Assembly: GCA_002778465.1 (NCBI GenBank)
Contig: PFBV01000002.1
Location: forward strand, 2,312 to 66,311
Reading direction: 5' to 3'
DNA: 64,000 nucleotides
From: Candidatus Magasanikbacteria bacterium CG10_big_fil_rev_8_21_14_0_10_36_32
Lineage (GTDB): Bacteria > Patescibacteriota > Patescibacteriia > Magasanikbacterales > GWA2-37-8
Below are positions 1 to 15,128 of this stretch, one piece after another. The notes beneath the pieces are model-generated. The model did no database searches. It saw nothing but the letters and a program-made list of their open reading frames with translations, and was not told where the DNA came from. The translations under genes were made by a program, and so were the position numbers. How positions within the stretch are numbered: the stretch's first letter is position 1; each line of letters starts with the position of its first letter.

Positions 1-2353
1 TGTTGGTCATCCAAAAGGATATATTGCCACCGATGTTGTCGCACGAATGAAACAGATGCAAGGGTTTAATGTTTTACATCCAATGGGTTGGGATGCCTTT
101 GGTTTGCCAGCGGAAAATTATGCTATTCAAAATAAAATTCACCCAGCTGAAGCAGTCAAAAAAAATGTTGCTACTTTCAAAAAACAATTGGAGTTGCTTG
201 GTTTTACTTATGATTGGGATAAAGAAATCAATACCACTGATCCGGCTTATTATAAATGGACGCAATGGATATTTTTACAGATGTTTAAAAAAGGATTGGC
301 TTATGAATCGTTCGCTCCGATAAATTGGTGCCCCTCTTGTCAGACAGGTTTGGCCAATGAAGATTTGGAAGAGGGGAAATGTGAACGTTGTGGTTCTTTG
401 GTTGAACAAAAACCGATACGTCAGTGGGTTTTAAAAATTACCGATTATGCCGAACGTTTATTAAATGATTTAGATAAATTAAAAAATTGGCCGGAAGCGA
501 TTAAAGAAATGCAGAAAAATTGGATTGGTCGGAGTGAGGGAGCGGATGTTGATTTTAAGATTAAAAACTTTGATTTAAAAATAAAGGTTTTTACCACACG
601 ACCAGATACTTTGTTTGGAGCTACTTACTGTGTAATCGCCCCGGAGCATGAATTAATGTCAAAACTCCAGCCCGAAATTGGCAATTGGCAGGAGGTCTCT
701 ATATATATAGAAGGCGCAAAGCATAAAACCGCCTTGGAACGGACAGATTTGGCTAAGAATAAGACAGGAATTGAGCTAAAAGGCATAAAAGCCATAAATC
801 CGGTTAATAATGAAGAATTAACAGTTTTTGTGGCTGATTACATTTTGGCTGGTTATGGCACAGGCGCGATTATGGCTGTTCCGGCGCATGATAGTCGCGA
901 CTACGAATTCGCGGTAAAATATGGTATTCCGATTAAAGAAGTAGTCGTTCCTGTTGGTGAAAATCAAAAATTAAATATCAAAAATCAAAATGACAATTCA
1001 AAATTAAAAAATGAAAATAACGAACTGAAGTCTAAAGTCCAAAGTTCAAAGCCCCAAATAATATTTGAGAAAGACGGAATCGCGGTTAACTCCGGTTTTT
1101 TGGACGGTTTACCAACTAAGGAAGCTAAAGAAAAAATGATTAAATGGTTGGAAGATAATAAATTCGGCGAGCGAAAAGTAAATTATAAATTGCGCGATTG
1201 GGTTTTTTCTCGACAGCGTTTTTGGGGTGAACCGATACCTTTAATTAAATGCGAAAAATGCGGTTGGGTTCCGGTTTCTGAAAATGATTTGCCGGTGGAA
1301 TTGCCAAAAGTTAAAAGTTATACCGCAACAGGCACGGGCGAGTCACCGTTGTCCGCTATTGAAAAATGGGTTAATACAAAATGTCCAAAATGTAGTGGTC
1401 CGGCTAAAAGAGAAACCAACACCATGCCTCAGTGGGGTGGTTCTTGCTGGTATTATCTTCGTTATATTGATTCACAAAATGATAAAGCGTTAGTTGATAA
1501 AGATAAGGAAAAATATTGGTCACCGGTTGATTTTTATGTCGGTGGCGCTGAACATGCTACTCGCCATTTAATTTATGCCCGTTTTTGGCACAAATTTTTA
1601 TTTGATATTGACGCGGTTAATTATGATGAACCATTTAATCGTCTGCAAAATGTCGGTTTGATTTTGGCGGAGGACGGCAGAAAAATGAGTAAACGTTGGG
1701 GTAATGTTATCAATCCTGATGATGTGGTTAAACAATATGGCGCTGACGCTATGCGTGTTTATGAAATGTTTATGGGACCATTTAATCAACCTTGCGCTTG
1801 GAATGCCAACGGTTTAATCGGCGCAAAAAGATTTTTAGACAAAGTTTGGTTTTTACAGGATAAAGTTGATAAAAAATTAGTGGTTAGTGGGAAAATAGAC
1901 AGCTTGGTTCATCAGACAATAAAAAAAGTGACTGATGATATTGAAACAATGCGATTTAATACTGCCATTGCTAAAATGATGGAATTAGTTAATGAAATGA
2001 ACAAAGAAACAGTAATTTCAGTTTCTAATTTTAAGTTTTTAATTTCTATTCTTTCTCCATTCGCTCCTCATATTTGTGAGGAATTATGGGCGGAACTTGG
2101 TGGAAAAGAGTTGTTGATTTTGTCTTTGTGGCCGAAATACGATGAAAAATCAGTTATGGCTGAAACTACTGTTATTGTTATTCAGGTAAACGGACGAGTG
2201 CGTGACAATATTGAATTTCAAACAGCTGATATCAGTGAGGAAGTGGCTAAAGAAGCGGCTTTATCCAGTGAATCAGTTAAAAAATATATTAATGGAACAG
2301 AAATAAAGAAAATTATTTATGTTAAAAACAAACTTCTCAATATCGTAATTTAA
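1..2353 (+). CDS. leuS: leucyl-tRNA synthetase, 5'-truncated by the window edge
   Basis: The translation from nt 1 reads in frame into the listed ORF (VGHPKGYIATDVVARMKQMQGFNVLHPMGWDAFGLP...). Class I aaRS editing and catalytic regions are recognisable, and the anticodon-binding C-terminus is present. Confidence 0.9.
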   Translation, partial: VGHPKGYIATDVVARMKQMQGFNVLHPMGWDAFGLPAENYAIQNKIHPAEAVKKNVATFKKQLELLGFTYDWDKEINTTDPAYYKWTQWIFLQMFKKGLAYESFAPINWCPSCQTGLANEDLEEGKCERCGSLVEQKPIRQWVLKITDYAERLLNDLDKLKNWPEAIKEMQKNWIGRSEGADVDFKIKNFDLKIKVFTTRPDTLFGATYCVIAPEHELMSKLQPEIGNWQEVSIYIEGAKHKTALERTDLAKNKTGIELKGIKAINPVNNEELTVFVADYILAGYGTGAIMAVPAHDSRDYEFAVKYGIPIKEVVVPVGENQKLNIKNQNDNSKLKNENNELKSKVQSSKPQIIFEKDGIAVNSGFLDGLPTKEAKEKMIKWLEDNKFGERKVNYKLRDWVFSRQRFWGEPIPLIKCEKCGWVPVSENDLPVELPKVKSYTATGTGESPLSAIEKWVNTKCPKCSGPAKRETNTMPQWGGSCWYYLRYIDSQNDKALVDKDKEKYWSPVDFYVGGAEHATRHLIYARFWHKFLFDIDAVNYDEPFNRLQNVGLILAEDGRKMSKRWGNVINPDDVVKQYGADAMRVYEMFMGPFNQPCAWNANGLIGAKRFLDKVWFLQDKVDKKLVVSGKIDSLVHQTIKKVTDDIETMRFNTAIAKMMELVNEMNKETVISVSNFKFLISILSPFAPHICEELWAELGGKELLILSLWPKYDEKSVMAETTVIVIQVNGRVRDNIEFQTADISEEVAKEAALSSESVKKYINGTEIKKIIYVKNKLLNIVI

Positions 2354-2369
2354 TGATACACTATAATAT

Positions 2370-2759
2370 ATGTTTGGAAAAAATAAGAAAATTAAAAACG
2401 TGTTAATTGTAGAGGATGATGCTTTGTTATCGCAAGTTTTAGGTAAAGCTTTTTCTGCCGCTGGTTTTGATGTAACCGGATTAACAGAGGGAATAAATGT
2501 GGTTTCTACGACAAAAAAAATAAAACCGGCAGCGATTTTGTTGGATTTAGTTTTGCCTGGTTTGGACGGGTTTACTGTTTTAAAAAATTTAAAATCCGAT
2601 AAGGCAACCGCTTCAATTCCAGTGATTGTTATTTCCAATTTGGGAGAGGCGGCTGATATAAAGTCGGTTATGGCGTTGGGAGCTGTTGAATATTTTATCA
2701 AGGCCAATACTCAAATGGAAAAAATAATAAAATTCACGCAAAAAATAATTAAAGATTGA
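2370..2759 (+). CDS. single-domain response regulator, receiver (REC) only
   Basis: 129 aa with a CheY-like fold pattern: acidic pocket (VEDDA), phospho-acceptor LLDLVLPGLDG, and a conserved T...K. No output domain. Confidence 0.7.
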   Translation: MFGKNKKIKNVLIVEDDALLSQVLGKAFSAAGFDVTGLTEGINVVSTTKKIKPAAILLDLVLPGLDGFTVLKNLKSDKATASIPVIVISNLGEAADIKSVMALGAVEYFIKANTQMEKIIKFTQKIIKD

Positions 2760-2764
2760 TTTCT

Positions 2765-3157
2765 ATGGCGGGTAAAAAATTAAAAGAAGTTTTGTTGGTG
2801 GTGGAAGATGATGAAATTTTGTTGAGAGCGTTATATTTGATGTTTAACAGTGGGAAATATACCATCGCCACAGCCACTGATGGAGAAACAGCTTTGAAAA
2901 TGGCTGAACGGATAAAACCCGATATGGTTTTATTGGATTTATTGATGCCAAAAATGAATGGCTTTGAATTTCTGAAAGTGTTTAAAGCGCATGATGAATT
3001 AAAAAAAATACCAGTGATTGTTTTGTCTAATTTAGGTGACAGTGACAGTAAGGAAAAAGCAAAAGCATTGGGCGCGATTGATTATTTCGTAAAAGCAAAT
3101 ATTAATTTAACTTCATTGGCAGATAAAATTAAACAAATTTTAAGCCAAAAAACATGA
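2765..3157 (+). CDS. single-domain response regulator, receiver (REC) only
   Basis: VVEDDEIL...MVLLDLLMPKMNGFEF...KANI pattern. The ATG at 2765 is preferred over the listed TTG at 2756. Tandem with the previous REC gene. Confidence 0.7.
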   Translation: MAGKKLKEVLLVVEDDEILLRALYLMFNSGKYTIATATDGETALKMAERIKPDMVLLDLLMPKMNGFEFLKVFKAHDELKKIPVIVLSNLGDSDSKEKAKALGAIDYFVKANINLTSLADKIKQILSQKT

Positions 3158-3975
3158 AAATTAAATGGCTCAATTTAGTTCTATGGTTAACGAATAAAGT
3201 TTATACTTTAAAAAAGAACTTGGTTGAGAGGACGGGACTTATTATTATTGTAACAGTGATAAAACTGTTAATTTTGGAAGTTGTATTGGCAATTATTTCA
3301 TTGCCACTTTATTTGGGTCTTAAAACTAAAACAACTGCCGTTTATTTGGCAGAAAAAAGCGGTTTTGGGCAGGTGGCTTTTGATTATCGTTTGCGTCGGC
3401 TGTTAACTTTAACTGGAGTTGGTGTTATTTTTTTAATTTGGACAGTAAAATTAATTTTGATTATTTCCGTACCCCGCGTTTATGGCCAGTTGCAATTATA
3501 CAAAGTCGTGAATTTTCAATCCGGCACGGGCTTGTCGCAACAGTTGATTAAAACTGAAACAGATATCCAAACCGCCAAAATTTCCAATAAAATTATTGTG
3601 CCAGTGATTGAAAATGTCACAAAAACAGGGATGGACAGTTATGCAGTATCCGGCTCAGGACAATCATTTTCCACGGTGGCAGTTATGCTAACCGGACAAC
3701 AAACAATAATTTATACCATTCAAGCTGATAATAATGGTTATTGGACAATGATTCACAATCAAAAGAATTTTAGGCTGAATGATGGAAATCATTCATTATT
3801 AGCGTTTACTTATGATAAAAAAACTGGGCAGCGCAGCGATATTTCTCCGGAACAGTTCTTTAAAGTTAAGACATCATTGATAGATCGTTTAGTGAAAAAC
3901 ATAGATACCCTGACTAATTGGTCGGTGGTTATTGTAATTTTATTGGGATTATTTTTAACCATCCTAACAATATGA
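3154..3975 (+). CDS. hypothetical membrane protein
   Basis: 273 aa with two N-terminal transmembrane helices and one C-terminal helix. ATGA-type start/stop overlap with both neighbours, suggesting translational coupling. Confidence 0.5.
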   Translation: MKIKWLNLVLWLTNKVYTLKKNLVERTGLIIIVTVIKLLILEVVLAIISLPLYLGLKTKTTAVYLAEKSGFGQVAFDYRLRRLLTLTGVGVIFLIWTVKLILIISVPRVYGQLQLYKVVNFQSGTGLSQQLIKTETDIQTAKISNKIIVPVIENVTKTGMDSYAVSGSGQSFSTVAVMLTGQQTIIYTIQADNNGYWTMIHNQKNFRLNDGNHSLLAFTYDKKTGQRSDISPEQFFKVKTSLIDRLVKNIDTLTNWSVVIVILLGLFLTILTI

Positions 3976-6900
3976 TGATTAGTTGGTTAAAAATATTTTT
4001 TAAACTTTCCGGGCGGATTTTTGAATTGAAACAAAAATTATCCCAAACTGACAGTTGGATAAAATCTTTGCCTTACGCTTTCCTTTTGATTTTAGACGAA
4101 ATAGTTTTTGTTTTTATTTCTTTGCCGTTGTATTTTGCCGTGCCGCCCAAAAAAGTTCAAGAAAAAGGAATTTTATTTCCTTCAGCCGAACCGGAAACCG
4201 AAAGAATGAAAATGTTTTTTATCAGAAGAAAAATAAGTTTAATTGCTTTTATCACCGCATTGGGAATGTTAGTTTTAAAATTTTTGGTAATCGGCGGTAT
4301 TTCTTTTTATTTGATGGGCGGGCAATTGCTTTTGGCTGCCACTCAAGATTGGCTATTTACCGTCCCTGGCGATTATGCTTATGACAGTTCAAAAATTGAA
4401 TTTGTTGGAGGGATTGCCAGATTGAAAAATTTGGGAACAACGGTTACAGGCAGTACCACTAATGCTAATTTTAATACCAATGCTACTGGCTGGACTTATG
4501 CTGATTGGGATCAAGGCGGTGGTGAGGCGAATGTAGTTGGAACTTATGTGGCATCAGGGGGAAATCCAGGCGGATTTGTTCAAATTAATTTTCCAGTTGG
4601 TAAAAGCGATGAGTTTGGCGGATATTGGCGTCAAGGTTTTGCAATCACGGAAAATAATCCAACCGCAACCCTCAGTTTTGATTGGTCAATAACCGCTTTT
4701 GACAATACTCCCGCCCCAGTCACATTTAAACTTTATGCTTTCATAGATACAGGAACAGGTGTTCCGGTTATTGGTCAAGAAGTTTGGAAATCAGAAGAAA
4801 TTACCGCAACAAGCGCTTGGGTTTCTATGACAAATTTAAATATTTCTTCAAAAGTTACGGCCGCTGGCACTTATTATTTAAAAATTGCGGTATGGTTGGA
4901 AACCCCAAATAACAACACAGGTCCTTTTACGCTTGGTTACGATAATGTCATAGTCAATTGGTCAAAAACTACGATTGTTTATGATTCTAATCGTCCGACA
5001 ATTATACCAAACAATTCTTTAACACCGGTCAATCCGGCGATTTGGAGTTCTTTTACAGAAACAGCTACAAAAAACGGAGGAGAAATTTATTATCAGTTAT
5101 CGGCTGATAATGGTTCTACTTGGAACTATTGGAATGGTTCGTCTTGGATATCCGCCGGCGCGTCTAATTATAATACCGCCATTGTTGTTAATAATAATAT
5201 TGCCGGTTTTTCTACCAGCACCAACAAAATAAAATGGAAAGCTTTTTTGGAAAGCAATGGCAGTCAACAAGTTAGTTTAAGCAAGGTTTCCATCGGCTAT
5301 ACGGAAAATTCCGCTCCCAGTATTTCTGAAGTAGTTCCTGTTCAGCAGACAGATAAAGGCCAAGTTTATATTTCTTATAATTTAACTGATGTTGAAAGCG
5401 ACCCCTCCAGTTTAATTACTTATGAATATTCTTTGACGGGCGCTTTTTCCGGGGAACAGGTGACAATGATAGCGTCCACTACTAATCCAATGCACAATGG
5501 TGTGTCCGGTTTGTCGGCTTCTCCGTCTGGCATCTCGCATATTTTTGTTTGGGACGGAATTATTAATTTGCCCAATGTTTACAACACTAGTACTTATGTT
5601 CGTTTGCGCGCCAATGACGGTATCGCAAGTGGTGTTTATGTCACTTCTTCAGCTATTACGATTGATTATGTAGCACCGGTTATTAGTAATTTATCTGTTA
5701 CGCAAAATTCCGGCAGTGCTAATTTTGATATTTCTTATGATTTATTTGATAACACTTCTGATAATATAAATATTGTTTTAGAAATCTCTGATGATGGCGG
5801 TTTGACTTGGGTTGTGCCGACTGTGTCATCAGTCGGAGATTTGGGTTCCAGTGTTACAGCCGGTATCGGAAAAGTAATTACTTGGAATGCCGGAGTTGAT
5901 TATCCGGCTCATCAAGTTTCCAATATGCAAGTTCGTCTTTTGGTTAAAGATAAATATCAAAATCAAAGCGTTTATTTTAATTCAGTCAATTTTGAATTAG
6001 ATACTTTGGCGCCGGTGGCTGCAATTACAGTTGATTTAATGGCTCAGCCAAATGCCGGCGATACCGCAGTTTTAATTTTTGGTTCTTTTATTGAAACAAA
6101 TCCTAATTATAACAATTTTTTTGTTGGAGTAAACAATGGAGATTATGGTTCGGCCACAGTCGGTGATAGTAATACAATTTCTCCTTCTGCCCAGTTGGTT
6201 GCTACCGGTGTAACCTTAACTGGCGCTGATTATATTGGTAAAGCAAAGATTGCTCACACTGATGATTTTGGTTTTTCAACTGATAATGAAAATTTTTCTC
6301 CCAATAGTTCATATAAATATGTAAAACCTTATACTCCACCGGCGCCGACAGTAGGTAATCCGGCAGAAGGGTCGTTAGATGTCACTATCAACAAATATTC
6401 TTCTGAAGCTGATGGATTAGAATATTTAGTTTTTGAGAATACCCAATCAAAATATATTCAAGGCGATGGTTTATTAAGTGATAGTCCTGTTTGGTTGTCA
6501 TCAGGAACAATAACTGTAATCGGCTTGTCTGATCCTTTGTCGCAATATATTTTTAAAACAAAATCTCGCAACAATAGCGATGCGGCACATACTCTAACCA
6601 GTGAGAGTGAATGGTCGTCCGGCGCGTCTACTGATTATCAATCACCATCCGTAACAATCAATTCCGTTGCACAGACTATTAATGGAACTAAATATGTGAC
6701 AGTTGATTATGTTGGTATTGATTTTCAGAATGCTCAGAATAATCTGGTAGTATATGAATATTCCACCGATGGTTTTGGTTGGATGACAATGACGGAAAAA
6801 GTTGGTGTAGATTCCAACGGTGTAAGCGGTTTAAGTTTTTCTTCCGGCGGAACGGCTTTCAAATTCGCGTGGGATGTTGGAAACGATTTGTTTTTAACCG

Positions 6901-9683
6901 AAGATTCCACTGTTTATGTTCGTCTTCAATCCAACGACTCTATTAACAGTAGTAATCTATCTGTTTCGTCCGCTTTTTTTGTGGATACGGCCGGACCAAT
7001 AATTTCCAATATTAATGTTAGTCAAGCAACTTCTTCCAATAATATTATTATTAATTATGATTTAACAGATACTGCCGGAGCTGATAATTTTATTGAATTA
7101 TTAATCTCTGATGATAGTGGCAGTTCTTATGTTGTAAGCGTGTCTGCGGTTACCGGCGACATTGGCGAAGGTGTCAGTTCCGGTATTGGAAAAGAAATTA
7201 TTTGGAACGCTGGGACGGATTTTAACGGACAAGAGCAGTCTGATATGCGGATAAAAATCCGTGCTAAAGATAGATATCAAAATCAGGGAGATTTTACAGA
7301 ATCATCTGATTTTCTTTTAGACACCAAAGGGCCAATTGTTAGTGATGTAAATGCGGTTCAATCAAGCAGTACCGTGTTAATAAATTATACTTTATCTGAA
7401 AATGTCGGTTTAGTTGTGTTTGAGGTGTCTGATGACAGTGGATTAACTTGGGTGGTATCCACCAGCAGTGTCAATGGTGATATTGGCGCCGATCAATTGT
7501 CCGGTTTAAAAAATTTCCAGTGGAATGCCAAAATTAATTTTAATGATCAAGAACAAAACGATGTGATGGTTCGTATTAGGGCAACTGATTATTTTAATAA
7601 TGTGGGCGATTATGTTTCGTCGGCTATTTTTTCTTTAGATACTAAACCTCCGGTTATAAGCAATATTACCGCTAATCAAACTCTGAATACAAAAGATTTT
7701 TCATTTAGTTATGAATTATCCGATGCTTCAGCCACAGCCACCATAGTATTGGATATTTCTTCCAATAGCGGTTTGGATTGGAATGTGGCGACTAGTACTC
7801 TCTCTGGAGATTCGGGAGATAATATTACCATGGGTGTTAAAAGTTTAATTTGGAATGCTGGTACGGATTTCAATGATCAGGAGAGTAATGTTATGCGTTT
7901 ACGTTTTCGTGCCACTGATGCTTGGGGTAATGAAAGTTTATTTTTTGAATCATCCGATTTTTCAGTGGATACAGCCGCTCCATCTGGTTTGTCGGAATTA
8001 ACCAAATATAGCATTACTGCAACTTCAGTGACATTAAATTGGTCATCCGGAGTAAATGATTCAAATTTTAATCATTATGAACTGTGGTATGGCGCGAATC
8101 AAAATGATGTTTTAAACAGAGCTGGTTCTGCGGACAAGTGGGATTCATTGGATGATGTTGATTTGAATAATATTACTACAATTTCTACAATTATTTCAGG
8201 AACAAGTTTTATTACTACTAAATATATAAAAATTTGGGCGGTTGATAATTATGGCAATGAATCATCGGCGCCGGATATTTCAGTAATTTATATTCCGCCG
8301 ACAGTGACCTATGATTTAATAGTGCAGGCGCCTACCGGTTCAGGCTCAATTAATCCGGCAATTGGCACTCATACATATAGTAAAGGAACCAATGTAGAAA
8401 TTACCGCTACTCCGGATAGTGGTTGGAATTTTGGTGGTTGGATTTTGGATGATTTATCAGGAGGCAATACAAATCCATTAACTTTAATAATGAATGCCGC
8501 GCATACAATTGGCGCTGTATTTAGTGAGGAAACCGTATCTGTTCCTGAAAAACAAGCGCCATCAGGCGGCGCGCCATTAGTTGTGATTGAGGCAACAGAT
8601 ACTACTCCGCCAACCGCGCCGATTTTAACGCCGGTTGCCGGACCACTGTCTTCAACCAGGGTAAAAATTTCCGGTTTAGCCGAACCTGGTTCAAAACTTT
8701 TTTTATACGATAAGGAAAGTCTGGTGGGACAATTAAGTTCTTTGGTTGGTAACAATGGAAGATTTGAACAAACTTTTGTTTTTAATGAAGGTGAACATAT
8801 TTTAACTTCCAAGGCGGTTGACACCAAAGGAAATCTTAGTCAGATTTCAGAATCAATTACATTTGTGATTGATTTAACTCCGCCGGATGCGCCGCAAATT
8901 TTATCTCCGAAAGAAAACAGTGTTTTATTGGCTAATGAATTAGTTTTGGTTGGTTTATCCGAACCGTTAACCGTTATGGAAATTAATTTAAGAGAAAATA
9001 TTTACAATACTGTCGCCAACGAAAGAGGAGTTTGGCAATTTAACATCTTTAATGTTACTGAAATTATACAAGGACGCCAGACAGTGACTGTACGAGCTAA
9101 AGATGCGGCTGGAAATATTAGCCGGCCTGTAACTTGGATAGGTACAGTAACAGTAGTCACGACCACTGGTGCTATTTATCCGATTCAAATTTTACCACCG
9201 GAAATAATTTCTCCGACTCCGTTGGCGCCGGCATCAATAATTCGTGAAGTTAACCAAGCAATTGAGACCACAGCTATAACGACTCCGTCAGTGGTCAGTG
9301 TTGAATTTTCCGGAGCCGATGACATTATTAGTTTTGCCGGCAAAGCTAAACCCGATGAAGAAGTGATAATTTATATTCATAGTAATCAGGCGGTAGTTTA
9401 TCGTACTGTGGCGGATAATCAAGGTAATTGGCATGTTCATCATTCACAAAATGAATTGGAATTATCCTCCGGTGAGCACACGGTATATGCGGTTGGCATT
9501 AACAGTGAAACAAATCTTAAAAGTCCGCCAAGTTTGATAGGGACATTTATTATTGAAAAAAATTGGTGGGTTAATATTTATAGGCATTTTAATTTTACCT
9601 CAACTTTAATTACCATTGCTGTTTTATTGATGGTTATGTCGTGGTTGTATTGGTTACGCCGTCGGGAAACAGTTAAAATTTAA
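3972..9683 (+). CDS. giant cell-surface protein with tandem ~100-aa Ig-like/FN3-like modules, an InlB-B-repeat-like segment and a C-terminal TM anchor
   Basis: N-terminal TM helices. At least six related modules of pattern 'P(V/I)ISN..V.Q....F.ISY.L.D......(I/V).L.ISDD.G..W.V...S..GD.G.....G.GK.I.WNAG.D....Q.......R..A.D.' are present. An FN3-like segment (TATSVTLNWSS...YELWYG) and Big-like segments follow, then the terminal hydrophobic helix TLITIAVLLMVMSWLYWLRRRE. The start is set to the ATG that overlaps the upstream stop (ATGA). Confidence 0.75.
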   Translation: MMISWLKIFFKLSGRIFELKQKLSQTDSWIKSLPYAFLLILDEIVFVFISLPLYFAVPPKKVQEKGILFPSAEPETERMKMFFIRRKISLIAFITALGMLVLKFLVIGGISFYLMGGQLLLAATQDWLFTVPGDYAYDSSKIEFVGGIARLKNLGTTVTGSTTNANFNTNATGWTYADWDQGGGEANVVGTYVASGGNPGGFVQINFPVGKSDEFGGYWRQGFAITENNPTATLSFDWSITAFDNTPAPVTFKLYAFIDTGTGVPVIGQEVWKSEEITATSAWVSMTNLNISSKVTAAGTYYLKIAVWLETPNNNTGPFTLGYDNVIVNWSKTTIVYDSNRPTIIPNNSLTPVNPAIWSSFTETATKNGGEIYYQLSADNGSTWNYWNGSSWISAGASNYNTAIVVNNNIAGFSTSTNKIKWKAFLESNGSQQVSLSKVSIGYTENSAPSISEVVPVQQTDKGQVYISYNLTDVESDPSSLITYEYSLTGAFSGEQVTMIASTTNPMHNGVSGLSASPSGISHIFVWDGIINLPNVYNTSTYVRLRANDGIASGVYVTSSAITIDYVAPVISNLSVTQNSGSANFDISYDLFDNTSDNINIVLEISDDGGLTWVVPTVSSVGDLGSSVTAGIGKVITWNAGVDYPAHQVSNMQVRLLVKDKYQNQSVYFNSVNFELDTLAPVAAITVDLMAQPNAGDTAVLIFGSFIETNPNYNNFFVGVNNGDYGSATVGDSNTISPSAQLVATGVTLTGADYIGKAKIAHTDDFGFSTDNENFSPNSSYKYVKPYTPPAPTVGNPAEGSLDVTINKYSSEADGLEYLVFENTQSKYIQGDGLLSDSPVWLSSGTITVIGLSDPLSQYIFKTKSRNNSDAAHTLTSESEWSSGASTDYQSPSVTINSVAQTINGTKYVTVDYVGIDFQNAQNNLVVYEYSTDGFGWMTMTEKVGVDSNGVSGLSFSSGGTAFKFAWDVGNDLFLTEDSTVYVRLQSNDSINSSNLSVSSAFFVDTAGPIISNINVSQATSSNNIIINYDLTDTAGADNFIELLISDDSGSSYVVSVSAVTGDIGEGVSSGIGKEIIWNAGTDFNGQEQSDMRIKIRAKDRYQNQGDFTESSDFLLDTKGPIVSDVNAVQSSSTVLINYTLSENVGLVVFEVSDDSGLTWVVSTSSVNGDIGADQLSGLKNFQWNAKINFNDQEQNDVMVRIRATDYFNNVGDYVSSAIFSLDTKPPVISNITANQTLNTKDFSFSYELSDASATATIVLDISSNSGLDWNVATSTLSGDSGDNITMGVKSLIWNAGTDFNDQESNVMRLRFRATDAWGNESLFFESSDFSVDTAAPSGLSELTKYSITATSVTLNWSSGVNDSNFNHYELWYGANQNDVLNRAGSADKWDSLDDVDLNNITTISTIISGTSFITTKYIKIWAVDNYGNESSAPDISVIYIPPTVTYDLIVQAPTGSGSINPAIGTHTYSKGTNVEITATPDSGWNFGGWILDDLSGGNTNPLTLIMNAAHTIGAVFSEETVSVPEKQAPSGGAPLVVIEATDTTPPTAPILTPVAGPLSSTRVKISGLAEPGSKLFLYDKESLVGQLSSLVGNNGRFEQTFVFNEGEHILTSKAVDTKGNLSQISESITFVIDLTPPDAPQILSPKENSVLLANELVLVGLSEPLTVMEINLRENIYNTVANERGVWQFNIFNVTEIIQGRQTVTVRAKDAAGNISRPVTWIGTVTVVTTTGAIYPIQILPPEIISPTPLAPASIIREVNQAIETTAITTPSVVSVEFSGADDIISFAGKAKPDEEVIIYIHSNQAVVYRTVADNQGNWHVHHSQNELELSSGEHTVYAVGINSETNLKSPPSLIGTFIIEKNWWVNIYRHFNFTSTLITIAVLLMVMSWLYWLRRRETVKI

Positions 9684-9687
9684 TGAT

Positions 9688-12411
9688 ATGATGGTTATAG
9701 ATGAAAAACAAAAATTAAAATTAATTAAATTTTATCAATCTATATCTCATTGGTTGGGGATTGTTGTTTTAACGATTGGCGGGGTGGTGTTGGTGGGCTG
9801 GATTTTTGACATTCAAATATTAAAAAGCGTTTTACCTGGTTTGGTTGCAATGAAGGCCAATACCGCCGTTTGTTTTGTTTTATCAGGTTTTACTTTAATT
9901 TTATTACAGGAAAAACGTATTGGAACGGTTCAACGAATAATAGGGGGAATATTTTCATTTTTGGTTTTATTGTTAGGTGTTTTAACTTTGACTGAATATA
10001 TTTTTGGATTTAATTTTTACATTGATCAGTTGTTATTTAAGGAATTACCTGATGCTGTTTTAACTTTTTCACCGGGGCGAATGGCTGCCAATACCGCATT
10101 TAATTTTTTTCTTATTGGTGTTGCTTTGTTGACAGTCAGTTTAAGCAGGAAGTCAAAAATAATATTTGCAAATATTTTAGTTGTAATAGTCGGAATAGTT
10201 TCTTTATTGGCTTTAATCGGCTATATTTTTGGCGTATCGGTATTTTATCAAGGCATAGCATTGTATACGGCCATGGCTTTGCATACCGCGATTGCTTTTT
10301 TATTTATCGCAATCAGTATTTTTTTTATCAGGTTTGACCATGATTCAGTTCCTGTTTTAGGAGCCGGTGGAACCGGAGGCGCGGTTGTTAGACGTTTATT
10401 GCCGGTGATTGTAATAGTGCCAATAGTGTTAGGTTTATTGTTTCGTTTAGGCGAACAAAGAGGCTATTATAATAATGATTTTGAACTTTCTTTTCTCACC
10501 ACCTTTATTATTGTTATTTTGATGATATTTTTTTGGTTTAACGCTAAAAATATTAATAAAAATGAAATTTTGCAAGCCGAGAGTATTTTAAAATTAGAAG
10601 AATCAGAAAAAAAATATCGGGAAATTTTTAATAACATTCAGGATATCTTTTTTGAAGTTAATATGAATGGAATTGTTGTTGATATATCCCCTTCAATTGA
10701 ACAAATTACTAAATACAAAAGAGATGATCTGATTGGCCGAGACATAGGTCAATTATATGCTAAAAAAGAAGAAAGAAATGATATTTTAAAAACACTGGCT
10801 AAAATCGGAAAAGTTTATGATGTGGAAGCTGATTTTATTGATAAAGATGGTGCCAAATTAACCGGTTCAATGGTAGCCAGATTGATTAAAAACGAAAAAG
10901 GTGTTCCTTTGAGAATTGTCGGTACCATTCGCGATGTTACTGCCCGCCGGAGAGCCGAGGATGAATTGAAATTTAAGAATATTATTTTAGATACACAGCA
11001 AAATACTTCTTTAGATGGAATTTTGATAGTTGACGAAGAAGGAAAAATAATTTCTTTTAATCGACGTTTCGTGAAAATGTGGAATATAACGGATCAAGTG
11101 TTGGAATCAAAGTCAGATGAGCTCGCTTTACAATCGGTGCTTGACAAATTGGTAAATCCTGAAGAATTTTTGTCGCGGGTTAAATTTTTATATGAACATA
11201 AAAATGAAAAAAGTCGTGAAGAAATCTCATTAAAGGATGGAAGAATTTTTGACCGTTATTCTTCGCCAATGTTGTCTTTGGAAAAAGAGTATCTTGGCAG
11301 AGTTTGGTATTTTAGTGATGTGACGGAAAATCGCCAAGCCTCCAGTATATTAAAAAAATCAGAAGAAAAATATGCCGCTTTGGTGGAAAATAGCAATGAT
11401 GGCGTTTTAATTTTACAGGATGAGGTGATTAAATTTGCTAACCGAGCTATGTTGAATATGTTTGGTCTTACAGAAGAAAGGGTTATCGGTCGTTCTTTTT
11501 TAGACTTTACCGATGAACCGTCAAAAAAAATTGCTGCTGATAAATATAAAAAACGAATGAAAGGTGAAAAAATTGCTTCGCGGACGGAATTAAATTTAAT
11601 TCATAGCAGTGGACGGACATTTTCCGCGGAAATCAATGCGGCATTGATTTATCATGAAGGCCGGCCGGCCGATATGGCAACCGTGCGCGATATCAGCAAG
11701 GCAAAAGAAATAGACCGTATGAAATCAGAATTTGTGGCTGTTACTTCGCACCAATTAAGGACTCCTTTGACCGGCATAAAATGGTTTACCGAGTTGTTGA
11801 TAAAAGATAAAAAGCATAAATTATCAAAAGAACAAAAAGATTTTATTCAGCAAATTTCCGTCAGCAATGAGCGGTTAATAAGATTAGTTGATGATTTGTT
11901 AGATGTTTCACATATAGAAACCGGTCGTAAATATAATGTTGTTTTAAAGTCTGAAAGTTTACATGATGTGATTCAAGAGGTGGTGGATAGTCAAAATCTT
12001 TCGGCCAAGAAAAAAGATGTTAAAATAATTTGTCCGCGTTGCCGTGAAAAATTGATTATGCCGATTGATCGGGAAAAAATCCGACAGGTATTTTCCAATT
12101 TAGTCAGTAATGCTATTAAGTATTCTCCGGCTAAAAGCGTTATAGAAATAGGTAGAGAAAAAAAACACGAAGAGATTATTATTTTTATTAAAGATCACGG
12201 AGTGGGAATACCCAAACATCAACAGAAACGAGTTTTTGAAAAATTTTTCCGGGCGGACAATGTATCCACTACTGAAACAGGCACAGGGCTTGGTTTGTAT
12301 ATTGCTAAAGCAATTGTAGAAGGACATGGTGGGCGAATTTGGTTTGAATCAATAGAAAAAAAGGGTACGACTTTTTATGTCGCTTTGCCTATAAAAAATA
12401 AATTAATTTAA
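9688..12411 (+). CDS. sensor histidine kinase with multi-TM N-terminus, PAS domains, HisKA and HATPase_c
   Basis: About 8 N-terminal TM helices and PAS-like repeats. H-box SHQLRTPLTGI. N/G1/G2 boxes (NLVSNAIKYS, DHGVGIP, GTGLGLYIAKAIVEGHGGRIW). Confidence 0.8.
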   Translation: MMVIDEKQKLKLIKFYQSISHWLGIVVLTIGGVVLVGWIFDIQILKSVLPGLVAMKANTAVCFVLSGFTLILLQEKRIGTVQRIIGGIFSFLVLLLGVLTLTEYIFGFNFYIDQLLFKELPDAVLTFSPGRMAANTAFNFFLIGVALLTVSLSRKSKIIFANILVVIVGIVSLLALIGYIFGVSVFYQGIALYTAMALHTAIAFLFIAISIFFIRFDHDSVPVLGAGGTGGAVVRRLLPVIVIVPIVLGLLFRLGEQRGYYNNDFELSFLTTFIIVILMIFFWFNAKNINKNEILQAESILKLEESEKKYREIFNNIQDIFFEVNMNGIVVDISPSIEQITKYKRDDLIGRDIGQLYAKKEERNDILKTLAKIGKVYDVEADFIDKDGAKLTGSMVARLIKNEKGVPLRIVGTIRDVTARRRAEDELKFKNIILDTQQNTSLDGILIVDEEGKIISFNRRFVKMWNITDQVLESKSDELALQSVLDKLVNPEEFLSRVKFLYEHKNEKSREEISLKDGRIFDRYSSPMLSLEKEYLGRVWYFSDVTENRQASSILKKSEEKYAALVENSNDGVLILQDEVIKFANRAMLNMFGLTEERVIGRSFLDFTDEPSKKIAADKYKKRMKGEKIASRTELNLIHSSGRTFSAEINAALIYHEGRPADMATVRDISKAKEIDRMKSEFVAVTSHQLRTPLTGIKWFTELLIKDKKHKLSKEQKDFIQQISVSNERLIRLVDDLLDVSHIETGRKYNVVLKSESLHDVIQEVVDSQNLSAKKKDVKIICPRCREKLIMPIDREKIRQVFSNLVSNAIKYSPAKSVIEIGREKKHEEIIIFIKDHGVGIPKHQQKRVFEKFFRADNVSTTETGTGLGLYIAKAIVEGHGGRIWFESIEKKGTTFYVALPIKNKLI

Positions 12412-12416
12412 ATTAT

Positions 12417-12794
12417 ATGCACAAAATTCTTATCGTGGAGGATGATAATATTTTGGCTCAAGCCATTTATACGGCTGTTAGGCGAGCCGGTTTTTCCGCT
12501 GAAGTGGCGGTTGATGGCGAGGATGCTTTAAAAAAAATGAAAAAAATAAAACCGGACGTGGTACTGCTTGATTTAATTTTACCAAAACGTTCCGGTGAGG
12601 ATGTTTTGGGAGCAATGAAACAGGATGAAACATTAAAAGAAGTACCTGTTTTGGTAATTACCGTCAAAGGCGACAAAGAAACTATCAGCCAGTGTGTAAA
12701 AATGGGTATTCGTGGATATTTAATCAAAGCGCATTATACTTTACAAGAAATAATCAATCAAATTAAAAAAGTGATTGCGGAAACAAAAAAATAA
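12417..12794 (+). CDS. single-domain response regulator, receiver (REC) only
   Basis: ILIVEDD...VVLLDLILPKRSGEDV...GYLIKA. No output domain. Immediately downstream of the kinase gene. Confidence 0.7.
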   Translation: MHKILIVEDDNILAQAIYTAVRRAGFSAEVAVDGEDALKKMKKIKPDVVLLDLILPKRSGEDVLGAMKQDETLKEVPVLVITVKGDKETISQCVKMGIRGYLIKAHYTLQEIINQIKKVIAETKK

Positions 12795-12796
12795 TT

Positions 12797-14278
12797 ATGA
12801 AGCCGGTGAAATTTTTTGAAAAAGTCGCCGGTTCCAAAAGCAAAACGTTTATTTCGTTTTGCTTTTGTTTTATTATGGGGGTTGGTTTTTTTTCTTTTAT
12901 TGAAATATCAGGAACAAAACTTTATTACTTATTAATTTGCGGTTTTGTAATTTTATTTGGTTTGATATTTTGGTGGAAAAATAAAGTGGCGCGGTTGATT
13001 TTATTGTGTTTATTGTTTGTAGTGTTGGGCAGTATGCGTTTTGTTGGTGAAATGATGTCGTCTCAGGCGGTAACAAATAATGATGGTCGGTTATTTTATG
13101 GAATTGTGGACGAAGAACCCAATTTTAAAATTGATAATGCTGAATATATTGTATCAACGGAATTTAATGAAAAAGTCTTAATCCGCCTTCCTCTTTATCC
13201 GCAATATAATTATGGCGATCGTTTAATGATTGATTGTCTTCCGGCACTTCCACAAAATTATCCTTCCGGCATATTTGATTATCGTCGTTATTTATCCAAT
13301 CAAGGAATTTTTTCGGTTTGTTTTAATCCTCCAGTCACAAAAATCGGAATTGATGAAGGTAATTTATTAAAATCAATTTTATTAAAAACCAAGAATATGG
13401 TCAGCGAACAGATAAACAGATTATTTGTTGAACCAGAAAGCAGTTTGTTGGCAGGTTTATTATATGGAGGACGCAGCGGTTTGCCTAAAGAATTGTCTGA
13501 TAGTTTTCGTCGGACAGGTTTGAGTCATATTGTGGCGGTATCAGGTTATAATATTTCCATTATTTCCGTGATATTTTTAAATATTTTAATTGTTCTTGGT
13601 TTTTCTCGTCCAAAAGCTTTTTGGTTGGCGATAATTGGTTTAGTTTCTTTTGTAATATTTACCGGCGCTTCCGCTTCAGTTGTCCGTGCCGGTATTATGG
13701 GATCATTGGTGTTGATTGCCGAAAAAGTTGGTCGGTTATCGGATGCCGGACGGTTGTTGTTTTTAGCCGGCGCTTTAATATTGCTGGTTAATCCGCGTTT
13801 ATTAGTTTGGGACGCAGGTTTTCAGTTGTCTTTTTTGGCTACTTTGGGTTTAATTTATTTAACGCCACATTTATGGTTTTCCAAAAGAAAAATTCCGGAA
13901 TTATTTTTTAACATAGTCAACCCGACTGTGGCGGCGATTATCGCTACCGCGCCGTTGATTATGTTTCAATTTGGACAGTTATCTTTGTCCGCTTTACCGG
14001 CTAATGTTTTAGTAATTTGGATGATACCATGGCTAATGTTGTTTGGATTTTTATCATTGTCTTTGGGGTGGATTTTTTATCCCTTGGGACAAATAATCGC
14101 GTGGTTGACAGGTTTTGGTTTAAAATATGTTATAATGGTGACAAGTTGGTTTTCTGCCCGAACCTGGGCGGCGGTTGAAATGAATATTTCTTGGTGGATG
14201 ATGTTAATAATGTATTTGTTAATTGTTTTATTTTTTTATGCCAAAAGTAAAAATTTTATCATCGGTCGCCGGATATGA
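12797..14278 (+). CDS. comEC: ComEC/Rec2-family competence membrane protein (DUF4131 plus competence domain; no MBL domain in this ORF)
   Basis: Polytopic. The motif ...GLLYGGRSGLPKELSDSFRRTGLSHIVAVSGYNISII... is typical of the ComEC competence domain. Confidence 0.7.
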   Translation: MKPVKFFEKVAGSKSKTFISFCFCFIMGVGFFSFIEISGTKLYYLLICGFVILFGLIFWWKNKVARLILLCLLFVVLGSMRFVGEMMSSQAVTNNDGRLFYGIVDEEPNFKIDNAEYIVSTEFNEKVLIRLPLYPQYNYGDRLMIDCLPALPQNYPSGIFDYRRYLSNQGIFSVCFNPPVTKIGIDEGNLLKSILLKTKNMVSEQINRLFVEPESSLLAGLLYGGRSGLPKELSDSFRRTGLSHIVAVSGYNISIISVIFLNILIVLGFSRPKAFWLAIIGLVSFVIFTGASASVVRAGIMGSLVLIAEKVGRLSDAGRLLFLAGALILLVNPRLLVWDAGFQLSFLATLGLIYLTPHLWFSKRKIPELFFNIVNPTVAAIIATAPLIMFQFGQLSLSALPANVLVIWMIPWLMLFGFLSLSLGWIFYPLGQIIAWLTGFGLKYVIMVTSWFSARTWAAVEMNISWWMMLIMYLLIVLFFYAKSKNFIIGRRI

Positions 14279-14843: not shown

Positions 14844-14847
14844 TTCA

Positions 14848-15125: not shown

Positions 15126-15128
15126 ATT

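What the first reader, a model, noticed from the sequence alone, without database searches (positions are those of the whole stretch)
2370..12794. Giant Ig/FN3-repeat surface protein embedded between three receiver-only response regulators and a PAS histidine kinase
Two tandem REC-only genes precede a small membrane protein (ATGA-coupled) and the 1,900-aa repeat protein. A multi-PAS kinase and a third REC-only gene follow. None of the three regulators has a DNA-binding or enzymatic output domain, so signalling is presumably by protein-protein interaction or a phosphorelay. The tight gene-to-gene overlaps suggest one transcription unit coupling a sensory system to a cell-surface adhesin-like protein. 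The surface protein has at least six ~100-aa modules with a conserved ISDD.G..W...WNAG.D core plus FN3-, InlB-B-repeat- and Big-like segments.
Basis: partly seen in the sequence, partly recalled or inferred. Interest (0 to 1): 0.6.

Follow-up and report, generated by a model that had tools for sequence, protein, structure and literature searches.

The report
Kinase-linked giant surface protein cassette
In a group of ultra-small, probably host-attached bacteria (Patescibacteria), phosphorylation-switch proteins are always encoded next to a small and a giant cell-surface protein that share a previously undescribed membrane anchor, which suggests that these cells switch a surface adhesin on and off by phosphorylation rather than by gene regulation.

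Summary
Window 2370-12794 encodes REC1, REC2, a 273-aa membrane protein, a 1,903-aa surface protein, a multi-PAS histidine kinase and REC3. All three receivers are output-less and have intact phospho-acceptor pockets. The genome is a Candidatus Magasanikbacteria MAG.

The new points are these. The 273-aa protein is a miniature paralogue of the giant. Both share a ~115-aa N-terminal membrane module, with a conserved Glu in TM1 and a conserved Lys in TM2, and both end in an Ig domain plus a C-terminal anchor.

That module gave only 199 hits among 1.84 billion representative proteins. It sits at the N-terminus in nearly all of them (within ~40 residues in all but two short hits). The hits are either ~255-290-aa proteins or 1,000-5,700-aa giants, plus fragments.

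REC1-REC2-small-giant order is conserved in about 32 loci from several Patescibacteria lineages, in different flanking contexts. In distant relatives with unrelated ectodomains (LamG, beta-helix), a REC2-type receiver still precedes the small gene and a kinase is usually nearby. Kinase sensor domains vary and most adjacent kinases are soluble.

I read it as a two-component system whose output is the surface-protein pair itself (inside-out control of adhesion). The genomic coupling is shown. The physical mechanism is inferred. I found no published description.

The parts
2370..2759 (+). REC1: a receiver-only response regulator of 129 aa. Its key residues are E15 D16 D17, D59, S89 and K111.
   Evidence: Pfam Response_reg scores 65.8 bits. 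Orthologues at 45-60% identity lie directly upstream of REC2 in every Magasanik-/Uhr-/Buchanan-/Falkowbacteria-type locus examined.
2765..3157 (+). REC2: a receiver-only response regulator of 130 aa. Its key residues are E14 D15 D16, D58, S88 and K110. It is the best-conserved gene of the cassette.
   Evidence: Pfam Response_reg scores 81.9 bits. Orthologues are 57-69% identical and always lie immediately upstream of the small gene. In distant loci the receiver upstream of the small gene is REC2-type, at 47-51% identity. REC2 is 40% identical to REC1.
3154..3975 (+). Small membrane protein (273 aa). It consists of an N-terminal helix, TM1 (with a conserved Glu), a basic loop (FDYxxRR), TM2 (with a conserved Lys), one Ig-like domain and a C-terminal TM helix. 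It is a miniature paralogue of the giant.
   Evidence: It has no Pfam or NCBIfam hit. The family has 69 clusters, all but three 266-275 aa long and the named ones all called 'hypothetical'. The AF2 model has mean pLDDT 74.6, with helices at 2-25, 30-55, 78-105 and 242-272 and a beta-sandwich at 151-238. BLASTP against the giant gives 37% identity over the N-terminal 60 aa (E = 6e-7) and 25% over the C-terminal Ig plus TM (E = 2e-7).
3972..9683 (+). Giant surface protein (1,903 aa), anchored by the N-terminal module and by a C-terminal TM helix with a basic tail.
   Evidence: Homologues of about 1,650-2,100 aa and about 3,000-3,450 aa occur in Magasanik-, Uhr-, Buchanan- and Falkowbacteria. The protein has no LPXTG motif, no RTX nonapeptide and no prepilin motif.
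3972..4316 (+). Shared N-terminal membrane module of the giant (residues 1-115): an N-helix, TM1 with Glu43 and an SLP kink, a basic loop (Y..RRK), and TM2 with Lys103.
   Evidence: In the alignment of giants and small proteins, L6, P52 and K103 are invariant, and K20, E43, S50, Y82, R85 and R86 are conserved in at least 90% of sequences. The profile gave 199 hits among 1.84e9 representatives, starting within the first ~40 residues in all but two short hits.
4332..5306 (+). Membrane-proximal ectodomain pair: a beta-jelly-roll (residues 121-335) and an Asp-box beta-sandwich (residues 343-445).
   Evidence: The AF2 model has pLDDT mostly above 90 here. Foldseek matches carbohydrate-binding modules (CBM4, CBM11, CBM61), gingipain adhesin domains and a phage tailspike lectin-like domain at E about 1e-4 to 1e-5. 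The pair is 40-55% identical to repeated units in Patescibacteria giant pseudopilins. It has no Pfam hit.
5343..8006 (+). Six ~110-aa Asp-box Ig-like modules at residues 458-573, 576-688, 903-1014, 1016-1125, 1126-1232 and 1234-1345. A ~215-aa unrelated insert lies between modules 2 and 3.
   Evidence: The HMM built from four modules recovers all six. No Pfam family scores above threshold; BNR scores E = 0.11.
8328..9128 (+). Flg_new_2 (InlB B-repeat), Big_6 and Big_13 domains.
   Evidence: On the C-terminal fragment Pfam gives E = 8.8e-13, 3e-13 and 6.1e-14, all above the curated cut-offs.
9276..9683 (+). Last Ig-like domain, C-terminal TM helix and basic cytoplasmic tail (RRRETVKI). This end is conserved in all giants and shared with the small protein.
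9688..12411 (+). Sensor histidine kinase (907 aa): about eight TM helices, three PAS regions, HisKA (His688) and HATPase_c (N, G1 and G2 boxes present).
   Evidence: Pfam hits are, motif positions and the TM prediction. The 8-TM domain is conserved only in the closest relative (L006) and, as a separate gene, in L007.
12417..12794 (+). REC3: a receiver-only response regulator of 125 aa. Its key residues are E8 D9 D10, D52, T82 and K104.
   Evidence: Pfam Response_reg scores 80.0 bits. A receiver follows the kinase, directly or one gene later, in the window, L004, L006, L009, L014, L021 and L041.
12801..12876 (+). Two adjacent stem-loops followed by a U-run, immediately after the REC3 stop codon. 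This is a candidate intrinsic terminator marking the 3' end of the unit. It lies inside the annotated first 26 codons of ComEC.
   Evidence: The terminator scan found a perfect 13-bp stem. The fold has MFE -29.6 kcal/mol and z = -3.0, and 1 of 200 shuffles folds as well.

Best explanation
This is a conserved Patescibacteria signalling-plus-surface cassette. A histidine kinase, usually a cytoplasmic multi-PAS kinase, phosphorylates small CheY-like receiver proteins that have no output domain. The target of those receivers is the pair of membrane proteins encoded next to them.

The pair consists of a ~270-aa 'small' protein and a 'giant' adhesin-like protein. They share a unique N-terminal membrane module: an N-helix, TM1 with a buried Glu, a basic juxtamembrane loop, and TM2 with a buried Lys.

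The proposed mechanism is inside-out control. The phosphorylated receiver docks on the cytoplasmic face of the module, at the basic loop and possibly the N-helix. This changes how the helices pack, or how the small and giant proteins associate. That in turn changes the state of the ectodomain: exposure, clustering or release of a glycan-binding, Ig-repeat surface fibre anchored at both ends.

Shown here:
- gene content;
- intact phosphotransfer residues;
- paralogy of the small and giant proteins;
- restriction of the module to these two protein types;
- conserved REC-small-giant linkage across deep divergence.

Inferred, with no direct evidence:
- phosphotransfer from this kinase to these receivers;
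- receiver docking on the module;
- the effect on the ectodomain;
- the adhesive role.
For: **Linkage in close relatives.** The order REC1-REC2-small-giant is found in every locus with enough sequence, about 32 loci. They come from Magasanik-, Uhr-, Buchanan- and Falkowbacteria-type genomes and other Patescibacteria. Flanking genes differ between them: LeuRS, an ABC transporter, SMC, a SpoU methylase and others.

**Linkage in distant relatives.** Here the giants carry unrelated ectodomains (LamG, NosD/beta-helix, MopE).
- L041: REC-small-giant-PAS kinase-REC.
- L039: REC-FIST-PAS kinase-small-giant.
- L040: small-giant-PAS kinase.
- One contig has REC-small divergent from giant-MASE6/GAF kinase.
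- In a metagenome survey, a REC gene lies directly upstream of the small gene in 22 of 25 loci where the small gene was found.
- The upstream receiver is REC2-type.

**Module specificity.** The profile gave 199 hits at E <= 1e-3 among 1.84e9 representative proteins. The match starts within the first ~40 residues in all but two short hits. Apart from fragments, lengths fall into two groups, about 255-290 aa and 1,000-5,686 aa.

**Direction of signalling.**
- REC2 is the most conserved gene (57-69% identity) and is always adjacent to the small gene.
- The kinase varies in position and in sensor domain.
- 10 of 15 adjacent kinases have no predicted TM helix, so they cannot couple to the pair inside the membrane.
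- A conserved response-regulator/target pair fed by variable kinases is the usual pattern for an output module.

**Competence of the parts.** The receivers have canonical acidic pocket, Asp, Ser/Thr and Lys residues. The kinase has H, N, G1 and G2 boxes. No DNA-binding or enzymatic output is present.

**Topology.** The loop before TM2 has net charge +4.5 in giants and +2.7 in small proteins. The sequence after TM2 has net charge -3.3 and -2.1. The giants' C-terminal tail is basic. This places the loop and the tail in the cytoplasm and the Ig/CBM-like domains outside.

**Ectodomain character.** It is adhesin-like: Big_6, Big_13 and Flg_new_2 domains, a CBM-like jelly-roll, and a head unit shared with pseudopilins.

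**Clustering in the window.** These are the only REC, kinase and module genes in 64 kb. A terminator-like structure follows REC3.
Against: - There is no direct evidence for any protein-protein contact.
- Module topology is not settled. The N-helix is also basic (net +3.9 and +4.5), while AF2 draws TM1 as one continuous helix. So it is unclear which conserved surfaces face the cytoplasm.
- In some loci no kinase is visible within the sequence held, for example L005, where an MFS transporter follows the giant.
- One REC1 orthologue has Asn at the phospho-acceptor position.
- In these compact, largely co-oriented genomes, gene adjacency alone is weaker evidence than in other bacteria.
- The adhesive function rests on fold and domain resemblance only.
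Confidence: 0.45

Rival explanations
1. Outside-in sensing. The giant/small pair is a contact, ligand or mechano-sensor. It modulates the kinase, and the receiver-only proteins carry the signal to other targets such as the type IV pilus motor or the DNA-uptake machinery.
For: - The window's kinase has an 8-TM domain with no large extracytoplasmic loop, as in intramembrane-sensing kinases that depend on accessory membrane proteins.
- In L004 the cassette is followed by PilB, PilC and pilin genes.
- A pilin gene lies next to the cassette in another contig.
- ComEC follows the cassette in the window.
- The giant's head unit is shared with pseudopilins.
- PilG/PilH-type CheY proteins are known to control pili (established knowledge).
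Against: - 10 of 15 adjacent kinases have no predicted TM helix, so they cannot sense the pair within the membrane.
- The kinase's position and sensor domain vary, whereas REC-small adjacency is nearly invariant.
- Pilus genes are adjacent only occasionally.
Confidence: 0.22
2. Co-expression only. The receivers are phosphorelay intermediates or phosphate sinks of a general signalling pathway. The surface-protein pair sits in the same operon without any physical coupling.
For: - Receiver-only proteins often act as Spo0F-like shuttles or as sinks (established knowledge).
- The nearest solved structures to REC2 include Spo0F, CheY, DivK and the PleD receiver, with no specific subfamily signal.
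- L007 carries six receiver genes and two kinases upstream, which suggests a wider network.
Against: - No Hpt or Spo0B-like transferase and no output-bearing regulator appears in any of the loci annotated.
- REC-small adjacency persists even when the giant is on the opposite strand. This argues for a specific partnership and not shared transcription alone.
Confidence: 0.18
3. The pair is an envelope or S-layer-like structural scaffold, not an adhesin. On this reading the neighbouring signalling genes regulate envelope remodelling, for example during division.
For: - Both proteins are anchored at both ends, which suits a surface-parallel scaffold.
- The small protein has only one Ig domain, so it can hardly reach a partner cell.
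- The size classes of the giants are discrete.
Against: - Ectodomains are swapped wholesale between lineages (Asp-box Ig modules, LamG, beta-helix, MopE). That is typical of fast-evolving binding proteins and not of structural lattices.
- The head unit is CBM-like and shared with pilus-borne proteins.
- One complete genome has deleted the giant.
Confidence: 0.1
4. Chance synteny with no functional relation.
For: Patescibacteria genomes are compact and co-oriented. LeuRS and ComEC are packed just as tightly against the cassette.
Against: The linkage is conserved across about 32 close loci and about 29 distant ones, with rearranged flanks, changed ectodomains and even changed strand arrangement.
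Confidence: 0.03

Closest known systems
Lap system (LapD-LapG-LapA) of Pseudomonas fluorescens: inside-out control of a giant adhesin (PMC3032545)
   Same: A cytoplasmic signal is passed through a membrane protein to control a giant repeat adhesin at the cell surface. The regulators and the adhesin are encoded together.
   Different: - The signal here would be a phosphorylated receiver, not c-di-GMP.
- There is no LapD (HAMP-GGDEF-EAL) and no LapG protease.
- There is no T1SS, no RTX repeats and no outer membrane.
- The adhesin itself carries the membrane module.
- There is no sequence homology.
CheY-FliM, and PilG/PilH-type single-domain response regulators
   Same: Receiver-only proteins with canonical phospho-sites that act by docking on a target protein and not by binding DNA. 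CheY~P recognises a short conserved peptide. The conserved basic loop or N-helix of the module could play that part here.
   Different: - The kinase is HisKA-type with PAS sensors, not CheA.
- No CheW, MCP, flagellar or (usually) pilus-motor genes are adjacent.
- The proposed target is a surface-protein anchor.
Giant bacterial Ig-like repeat adhesins (SiiE, MpIBP, Bap)
   Same: Tandem Ig-like domains form a long surface fibre. Foldseek matches the Ig domain of the small protein to SiiE, MpIBP and Bap domains. Big_6 and Big_13 domains are present.
   Different: - Anchoring is by an N-terminal two-helix module plus a C-terminal TM helix.
- There is no T1SS signal, no LPXTG motif and no RTX repeats.
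- The six Asp-box modules and the head unit have no Pfam family.
Accessory membrane proteins of two-component systems (YycH/YycI with WalK; LiaF with LiaS)
   Same: Small membrane proteins with extracytoplasmic domains are encoded inside a two-component operon.
   Different: Those proteins regulate the kinase through TM contacts. Here most adjacent kinases are soluble, and the tight linkage is to the receiver and not to the kinase.
Patescibacteria giant pseudopilins (prepilin N_methyl proteins of 1,050-1,450 aa)
   Same: They carry one to three copies of the same jelly-roll plus Asp-box unit, at 40-55% identity to residues ~125-445 of the giant.
   Different: They have a prepilin N-terminus and are presumably displayed on pili. 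They lack the N-terminal module and the C-terminal anchor.

Membership tests
Two-component system, HisKA-type sensor kinase | HisKA dimerisation domain with the phospho-acceptor His (H-box) | tested here: met
   Pfam HisKA scores 68.8 bits against a cut-off of 26.9. The H-box HQLRTP is at His688.
Two-component system, HisKA-type sensor kinase | HATPase_c catalytic domain with N, G1 and G2 boxes | tested here: met
   Pfam HATPase_c scores 101.6 bits. The N-box is at 804, G1 at 836 and G2 at 865.
Two-component system, HisKA-type sensor kinase | Autophosphorylation and transfer to the adjacent receivers | not testable with these tools
   This needs biochemistry.
Single-domain (CheY-like) response regulators | Receiver fold with an acidic pocket, a phospho-acceptor Asp, a conserved Ser/Thr and a conserved Lys | tested here: met
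   All three window proteins meet this. So do 27 REC1 and 31 REC2 orthologues, with two exceptions.
Single-domain (CheY-like) response regulators | No output domain | tested here: met
   The proteins are 125-130 aa long. The Response_reg match spans nearly the whole protein, and no other family scores above its cut-off.
Chemotaxis-type CheY pathway | CheA kinase with CheW and MCP partners | tested here: not met
   The only kinase in the window is HisKA/PAS-type. None of the annotated related loci shows CheA, CheW or MCP domains.
Bacterial Ig-like (Big) repeat surface proteins | Big-family domains scoring above Pfam thresholds | tested here: met
   On the whole protein, Big_6 scores 48.1 bits, Big_13 43.0 bits and Flg_new_2 44.4 bits, all above their cut-offs. 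The hits are repeated on the C-terminal fragment.
Bacterial Ig-like (Big) repeat surface proteins | Extracellular location | tested here: inconclusive
   The charge distribution around TM2 and the basic C-terminal tail predict that the repeats lie outside, and domains are shared with pseudopilins. There is no experimental localisation.
Fibronectin type III | fn3 profile match | tested here: inconclusive
   PF00041 scores E = 0.057 and 14.1 bits against a cut-off of 25 on residues ~1346-1380. Some homologues carry precomputed PF00041 hits.
BNR/Asp-box repeat | S-x-D-x-G-x-T-W hairpin motif | tested here: inconclusive
   The motif is present in the modules and in the head domain. The Pfam BNR match is sub-threshold (E = 0.11). 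The context is Ig-like or beta-sandwich, not a sialidase propeller.
Lap-type adhesin control (LapA/LapD/LapG) | LapG-type protease, a LapD c-di-GMP receptor, and a T1SS-secreted RTX adhesin | tested here: not met
   No such domains occur in the cassette. There is no GGxGxD repeat.
Sortase-anchored (LPXTG) surface proteins | A C-terminal LPXTG motif followed by a TM helix and a basic tail | tested here: not met
   There is no LPxTG-like motif. The TM helix and basic tail are present.
Type IV pilin-like proteins | An N-terminal prepilin cleavage/methylation motif | tested here: not met
   The motif is absent from the first 60 residues. The relatives that do carry N_methyl lack the N-terminal module.

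The most novel reading that the evidence does not exclude
The small/giant pair with its charged two-helix module is a previously unrecognised class of phosphorylation-gated surface machine, specific to Patescibacteria. A CheY-like protein binds the anchor directly and switches a double-anchored giant fibre between states such as extended and collapsed, or attached and released. This would give genome-reduced, transcription-factor-poor episymbionts a fast, non-transcriptional way to attach to and let go of host cells. In effect it would be a bacterial analogue of integrin inside-out activation, with interchangeable ectodomains.
Probability: 0.25. Interest if true: 0.85.

Novelty: new variant of a known kind. 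Interest (0 to 1): 0.6.

Why it matters
Patescibacteria (the CPR) make up a large share of bacterial diversity. Those studied so far live attached to other cells. They encode few transcription factors, and how they control attachment is unknown.

- **A concrete hypothesis.** A cassette in which output-less receivers are genomically tied to a surface-protein pair, across lineages and across ectodomain swaps, gives a testable hypothesis for post-translational control of attachment.
- **A new module.** It defines a new, sharply delimited membrane module. The small-protein family has no Pfam or NCBIfam match.
- **A link between display systems.** The same putative glycan-binding head unit occurs on membrane-anchored giants and on pilus-borne proteins.
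- **Limits.** The parts themselves are of familiar kinds: a two-component system and Ig-like adhesins. The organisms are uncultured. So the finding is a lead and not a demonstrated mechanism.

Tried and rejected
- **Promoter scan.** The sigma-70-type scan across 1800-15200 found 47 sites against 49.5 expected, so it says nothing about operon boundaries. Only the hairpins after REC3 stand out.
- **Small-protein fold search.** Foldseek of the AF2 model against the PDB matched only generic Ig/FN3 domains at E >= 1.6e-3. The N-terminal module has no structural analogue there.
- **Kinase orthology.** I tested whether the adjacent kinases are orthologous through their sensor domain. They are not. 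The window's 8-TM domain recurs only in L006/L029 and, as a separate gene, in L007/L036.
- **Metagenome scan.** A 15-sequence subset worked.
- **REC2 versus solved structures.** REC2 resembles the PleD receiver, Spo0F, CheY, RR468 and DivK about equally, so there is no informative subfamily.
- **Literature.** Six full-text searches and one paper read found no description of this cassette. The giant-gene preprint 10.1101/2023.11.21.568195 concerns Omnitrophota and does not cover it.
- **Alternative anchoring or secretion types.** I considered and rejected an RTX/T1SS adhesin, an LPXTG protein and a pilin, because the defining motifs are absent.
- **Complex prediction.** Receiver-plus-module prediction was not possible with the tools provided.

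Full report
**What is in the window.**

The region lies in a low-GC (33-38%), almost entirely + strand, tightly packed genome. The giant protein is identical to the 'hypothetical protein COU29_00440' of a Candidatus Magasanikbacteria MAG. The same gene string is found on 11 public contigs.

The genes run in this order:

| Gene | Coordinates | Size |
|---|---|---|
| LeuRS | 47-2353 | |
| REC1 | 2370-2759 | 129 aa |
| REC2 | 2765-3157 | 130 aa |
| small membrane protein | 3154-3975 | 273 aa |
| giant protein | 3972-9683 | 1,903 aa |
| histidine kinase | 9688-12411 | 907 aa |
| REC3 | 12417-12794 | 125 aa |
| ComEC | 12797-14278 | |

REC2/small and small/giant overlap by ATGA. The other junctions are gaps of 2-16 nt. 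That includes the junctions with LeuRS and ComEC, so spacing alone does not define a unit.

**Checking the observation.**

- Pfam finds Response_reg as the only above-threshold domain in each receiver.
- The kinase carries three PAS regions, HisKA and HATPase_c. About eight hydrophobic helices come before them. The H, N, G1 and G2 boxes are intact.
- The receivers carry the full catalytic set. REC1 has E15 D16 D17, D59, S89 and K111. REC2 has E14 D15 D16, D58, S88 and K110. REC3 has E8 D9 D10, D52, T82 and K104.
- The giant has Flg_new_2, Big_6 and Big_13 above threshold near its C-terminus.
- An HMM built from four modules recovers six ~110-aa modules with an Asp-box-like core.
- FN3 is only sub-threshold.
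- No other REC, kinase-core or module gene occurs in the 64 kb.

**The small protein is a miniature of the giant.**

BLASTP aligns the first 60 residues of the two proteins at 37% identity (E = 6e-7). It aligns the last Ig domain plus C-terminal TM helix at 25% (E = 2e-7). The same relation holds in every related locus.

A joint alignment of 38 N-termini shows the following:
- an N-terminal helix (WLNL...K.K);
- TM1 with a near-invariant mid-helix Glu and an SLP.Y motif;
- a basic loop ending in Y..RR;
- TM2 with an invariant mid-helix Lys.

AF2 models place helices at residues 2-25, 30-55 and 78-105 in the small protein (mean pLDDT 74.6). In the giant's first 470 residues they lie at 3-25, 29-56 and 77-114 (mean pLDDT 82.9). 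The loop is disordered in both.

The loop has net charge +4.5 in giants and +2.7 in small proteins. The sequence after TM2 has net charge -3.3 and -2.1. The giants' C-terminal tail is basic. This puts the loop and the tail in the cytoplasm and the ectodomain outside.

The N-helix is also basic, so its side of the membrane, and whether TM1 spans or re-enters, remain open. I flag this as unexplained.

**How specific the module is.**

A profile of the module was searched against 1.84 billion representative proteins. It gave 199 hits at E <= 1e-3.
- The match starts within the first ~40 residues in all but two short hits.
- Apart from obvious fragments, lengths fall into two groups: about 255-290 aa and 1,000-5,686 aa.

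The small-protein family has no Pfam or NCBIfam match. The module is therefore a sharply delimited, so far undescribed element, confined to 'small' and 'giant' partners.

**Neighbourhood conservation.**

*Close relatives.*

I used six contigs carrying giant homologues. I added 29 species-representative genomes found with the small protein, annotated with my own ORF and BLAST pipeline.
- REC1-REC2-small-giant is present in every locus with enough sequence.
- Flanking genes differ between loci.
- The lineages are labelled Magasanik-, Uhr-, Buchanan- and Falkowbacteria, plus other Patescibacteria.
- Identity to the window is 57-69% for REC2, 45-60% for REC1, 41-51% for the small protein and 43-59% for the giant.

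*The kinase in these loci.*
- A kinase, mostly followed by a receiver, lies just downstream in about ten loci.
- It lies upstream in four or five loci.
- It is absent from the sequence in view in a few, for example L005.
- The window's 8-TM sensor recurs only in the nearest relative and, split off as its own gene, in L007.

*A natural deletion.*

One complete 896-kb chromosome (L037) has a truncated small gene abutting a kinase fragment. This is a deletion of the giant that preserves the expected order.

*Distant relatives.*

Their giants carry quite different ectodomains (LamG, NosD/beta-helix, MopE), yet the same association holds.
- L041: REC-small-giant-PAS kinase-REC.
- L039: REC-FIST-PAS kinase-small-giant.
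- L040: small-giant-PAS kinase.
- One contig has REC-small divergent from giant-MASE6/GAF kinase.
- The upstream receiver is REC2-type, at 47-51% identity.
- In 26 further metagenome loci, a receiver gene lies directly upstream of the small gene in 22 of 25 loci where the small gene was found. The giant lies downstream or is divergently transcribed.

**What this says about mechanism.**

- The invariant part is receiver + small + giant. The kinase is usually nearby, but it has interchangeable sensors (PAS arrays, HAMP, GAF/MASE6, the 8-TM domain).
- 10 of 15 adjacent kinases have no predicted TM helix.
- The receivers have no output domain, so they must act through protein contacts (established knowledge for CheY, DivK, Spo0F and CpdR).
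- No Hpt-type transferase or output-bearing regulator is seen in any locus.

The simplest reading is that the surface-protein pair is the output. The phosphorylated receiver would dock on the cytoplasmic face of the shared module and alter the anchor, and through it the ectodomain. The buried Glu/Lys pair may take part.

This is inference. I put it at about 0.45. Functional coupling of the genes as such is about 0.9.

The main rival is outside-in sensing by the pair, with the receivers acting elsewhere, for example on pili. Occasional adjacency of pilus genes and the window's own TM-rich kinase support it. The prevalence of soluble kinases, and the tighter linkage to the receiver than to the kinase, weaken it.

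**The ectodomain.**

- Residues 121-445 are modelled with pLDDT mostly above 90, as a beta-jelly-roll followed by an Asp-box sandwich.
- Foldseek matches the jelly-roll to carbohydrate-binding modules, gingipain adhesin domains and the lectin-like domain of a phage tailspike, at E about 1e-4 to 1e-5.
- This unit is 40-55% identical to one to three copies found in Patescibacteria giant pseudopilins. So the same probable binding unit is displayed both on pili and on these membrane-anchored giants.
- The protein then has six Asp-box modules, an FN3-like segment, and Flg_new_2, Big_6, Big_13 and a final Ig domain.
- Both ends are membrane-anchored.
- There is no LPXTG motif, RTX repeat or prepilin motif.

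**Transcription unit.**

Consensus promoter scanning is uninformative. Two adjacent hairpins and a U-run lie directly after the REC3 stop codon, at 12801-12876. The fold has MFE -29.6 kcal/mol and z = -3.0. This is compatible with a terminator that closes the unit before ComEC. In that case the ComEC start would be the ATG at 12875.

**Comparison with known systems, and novelty.**

- *Works like.* The Lap inside-out adhesin control (PMC3032545) and CheY-type docking regulators.
- *Not a member of either.* There is no LapD, LapG or T1SS, and no CheA, CheW or MCP.
- *Ectodomain.* It belongs to the broad class of Ig-like repeat surface proteins.
- *Literature.* Six full-text searches found no description of the cassette, the module or the small-protein family.

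I rate it a new variant of known kinds: a two-component system with a non-transcriptional, surface-protein output. It carries a new membrane module and a well-supported comparative-genomic signature.

Interest is 0.6. It offers a concrete handle on how transcription-factor-poor, host-attached bacteria might regulate attachment. The mechanism is unproven and the organisms are uncultured.

Noticed in passing
window 28016-36127 (and on to 42889): A second giant ORF of 2,703 aa has a signal-peptide-like N-terminus, no Pfam hit and no N-terminal module. It is followed by ORFs of 1,050, 343 and 395 aa without Pfam hits, and then by a PrgI-family gene at 42464-42889. This may be a type IV secretion or conjugation-like cluster.
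   Followed up: partly
window 12801-12876: Two adjacent stem-loops and a U-run lie directly after the REC3 stop codon, inside the first 26 codons of the annotated ComEC gene. The fold has MFE -29.6 kcal/mol and z = -3.0. The real ComEC start may be the ATG at 12875.
   Followed up: partly
L037 10001-12117 (OW818634.1, complete 896-kb chromosome): The small gene is truncated at about residue 218 and runs straight into a kinase fragment that aligns to window kinase residues 415-903. The giant gene appears to have been deleted in this genome.
   Followed up: partly
window 4332-5306; proteins P0079-P0111: The jelly-roll plus Asp-box head unit of the giant recurs, at 40-55% identity and in one to three copies, in Patescibacteria pseudopilin-like proteins of 1,050-1,450 aa that carry prepilin N_methyl motifs.
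   Followed up: partly
L016 (REC1 orthologue): One REC1 orthologue has Asn instead of the phospho-acceptor Asp ('LMNL' in place of 'LLDL'). It may be a phosphorylation-independent variant.
   Followed up: no
L054 and L055: Two metagenome loci carry REC-small(268)-small(283). In L054 a kinase follows. They have two small paralogues in tandem and no giant.
   Followed up: no
L007 2556-3212: A separate 214-218-aa membrane protein is homologous to the window kinase's N-terminal 8-TM domain. It lies directly upstream of a HAMP-PAS kinase, so it is a split version of the sensor.
   Followed up: no
homologues of the giant: The giants fall into discrete size classes, about 1,650-2,100 aa and about 3,000-3,450 aa, with outliers of 3,982 and 5,686 aa. 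This suggests block duplication of the central repeat region between fixed ends.
   Followed up: no
L013, L017, L026, L030, L033: Several species-representative MAGs that carry this Patescibacteria cassette are titled 'uncultured Gammaproteobacteria bacterium' in their records. This is probably a taxonomic mislabel.
   Followed up: no
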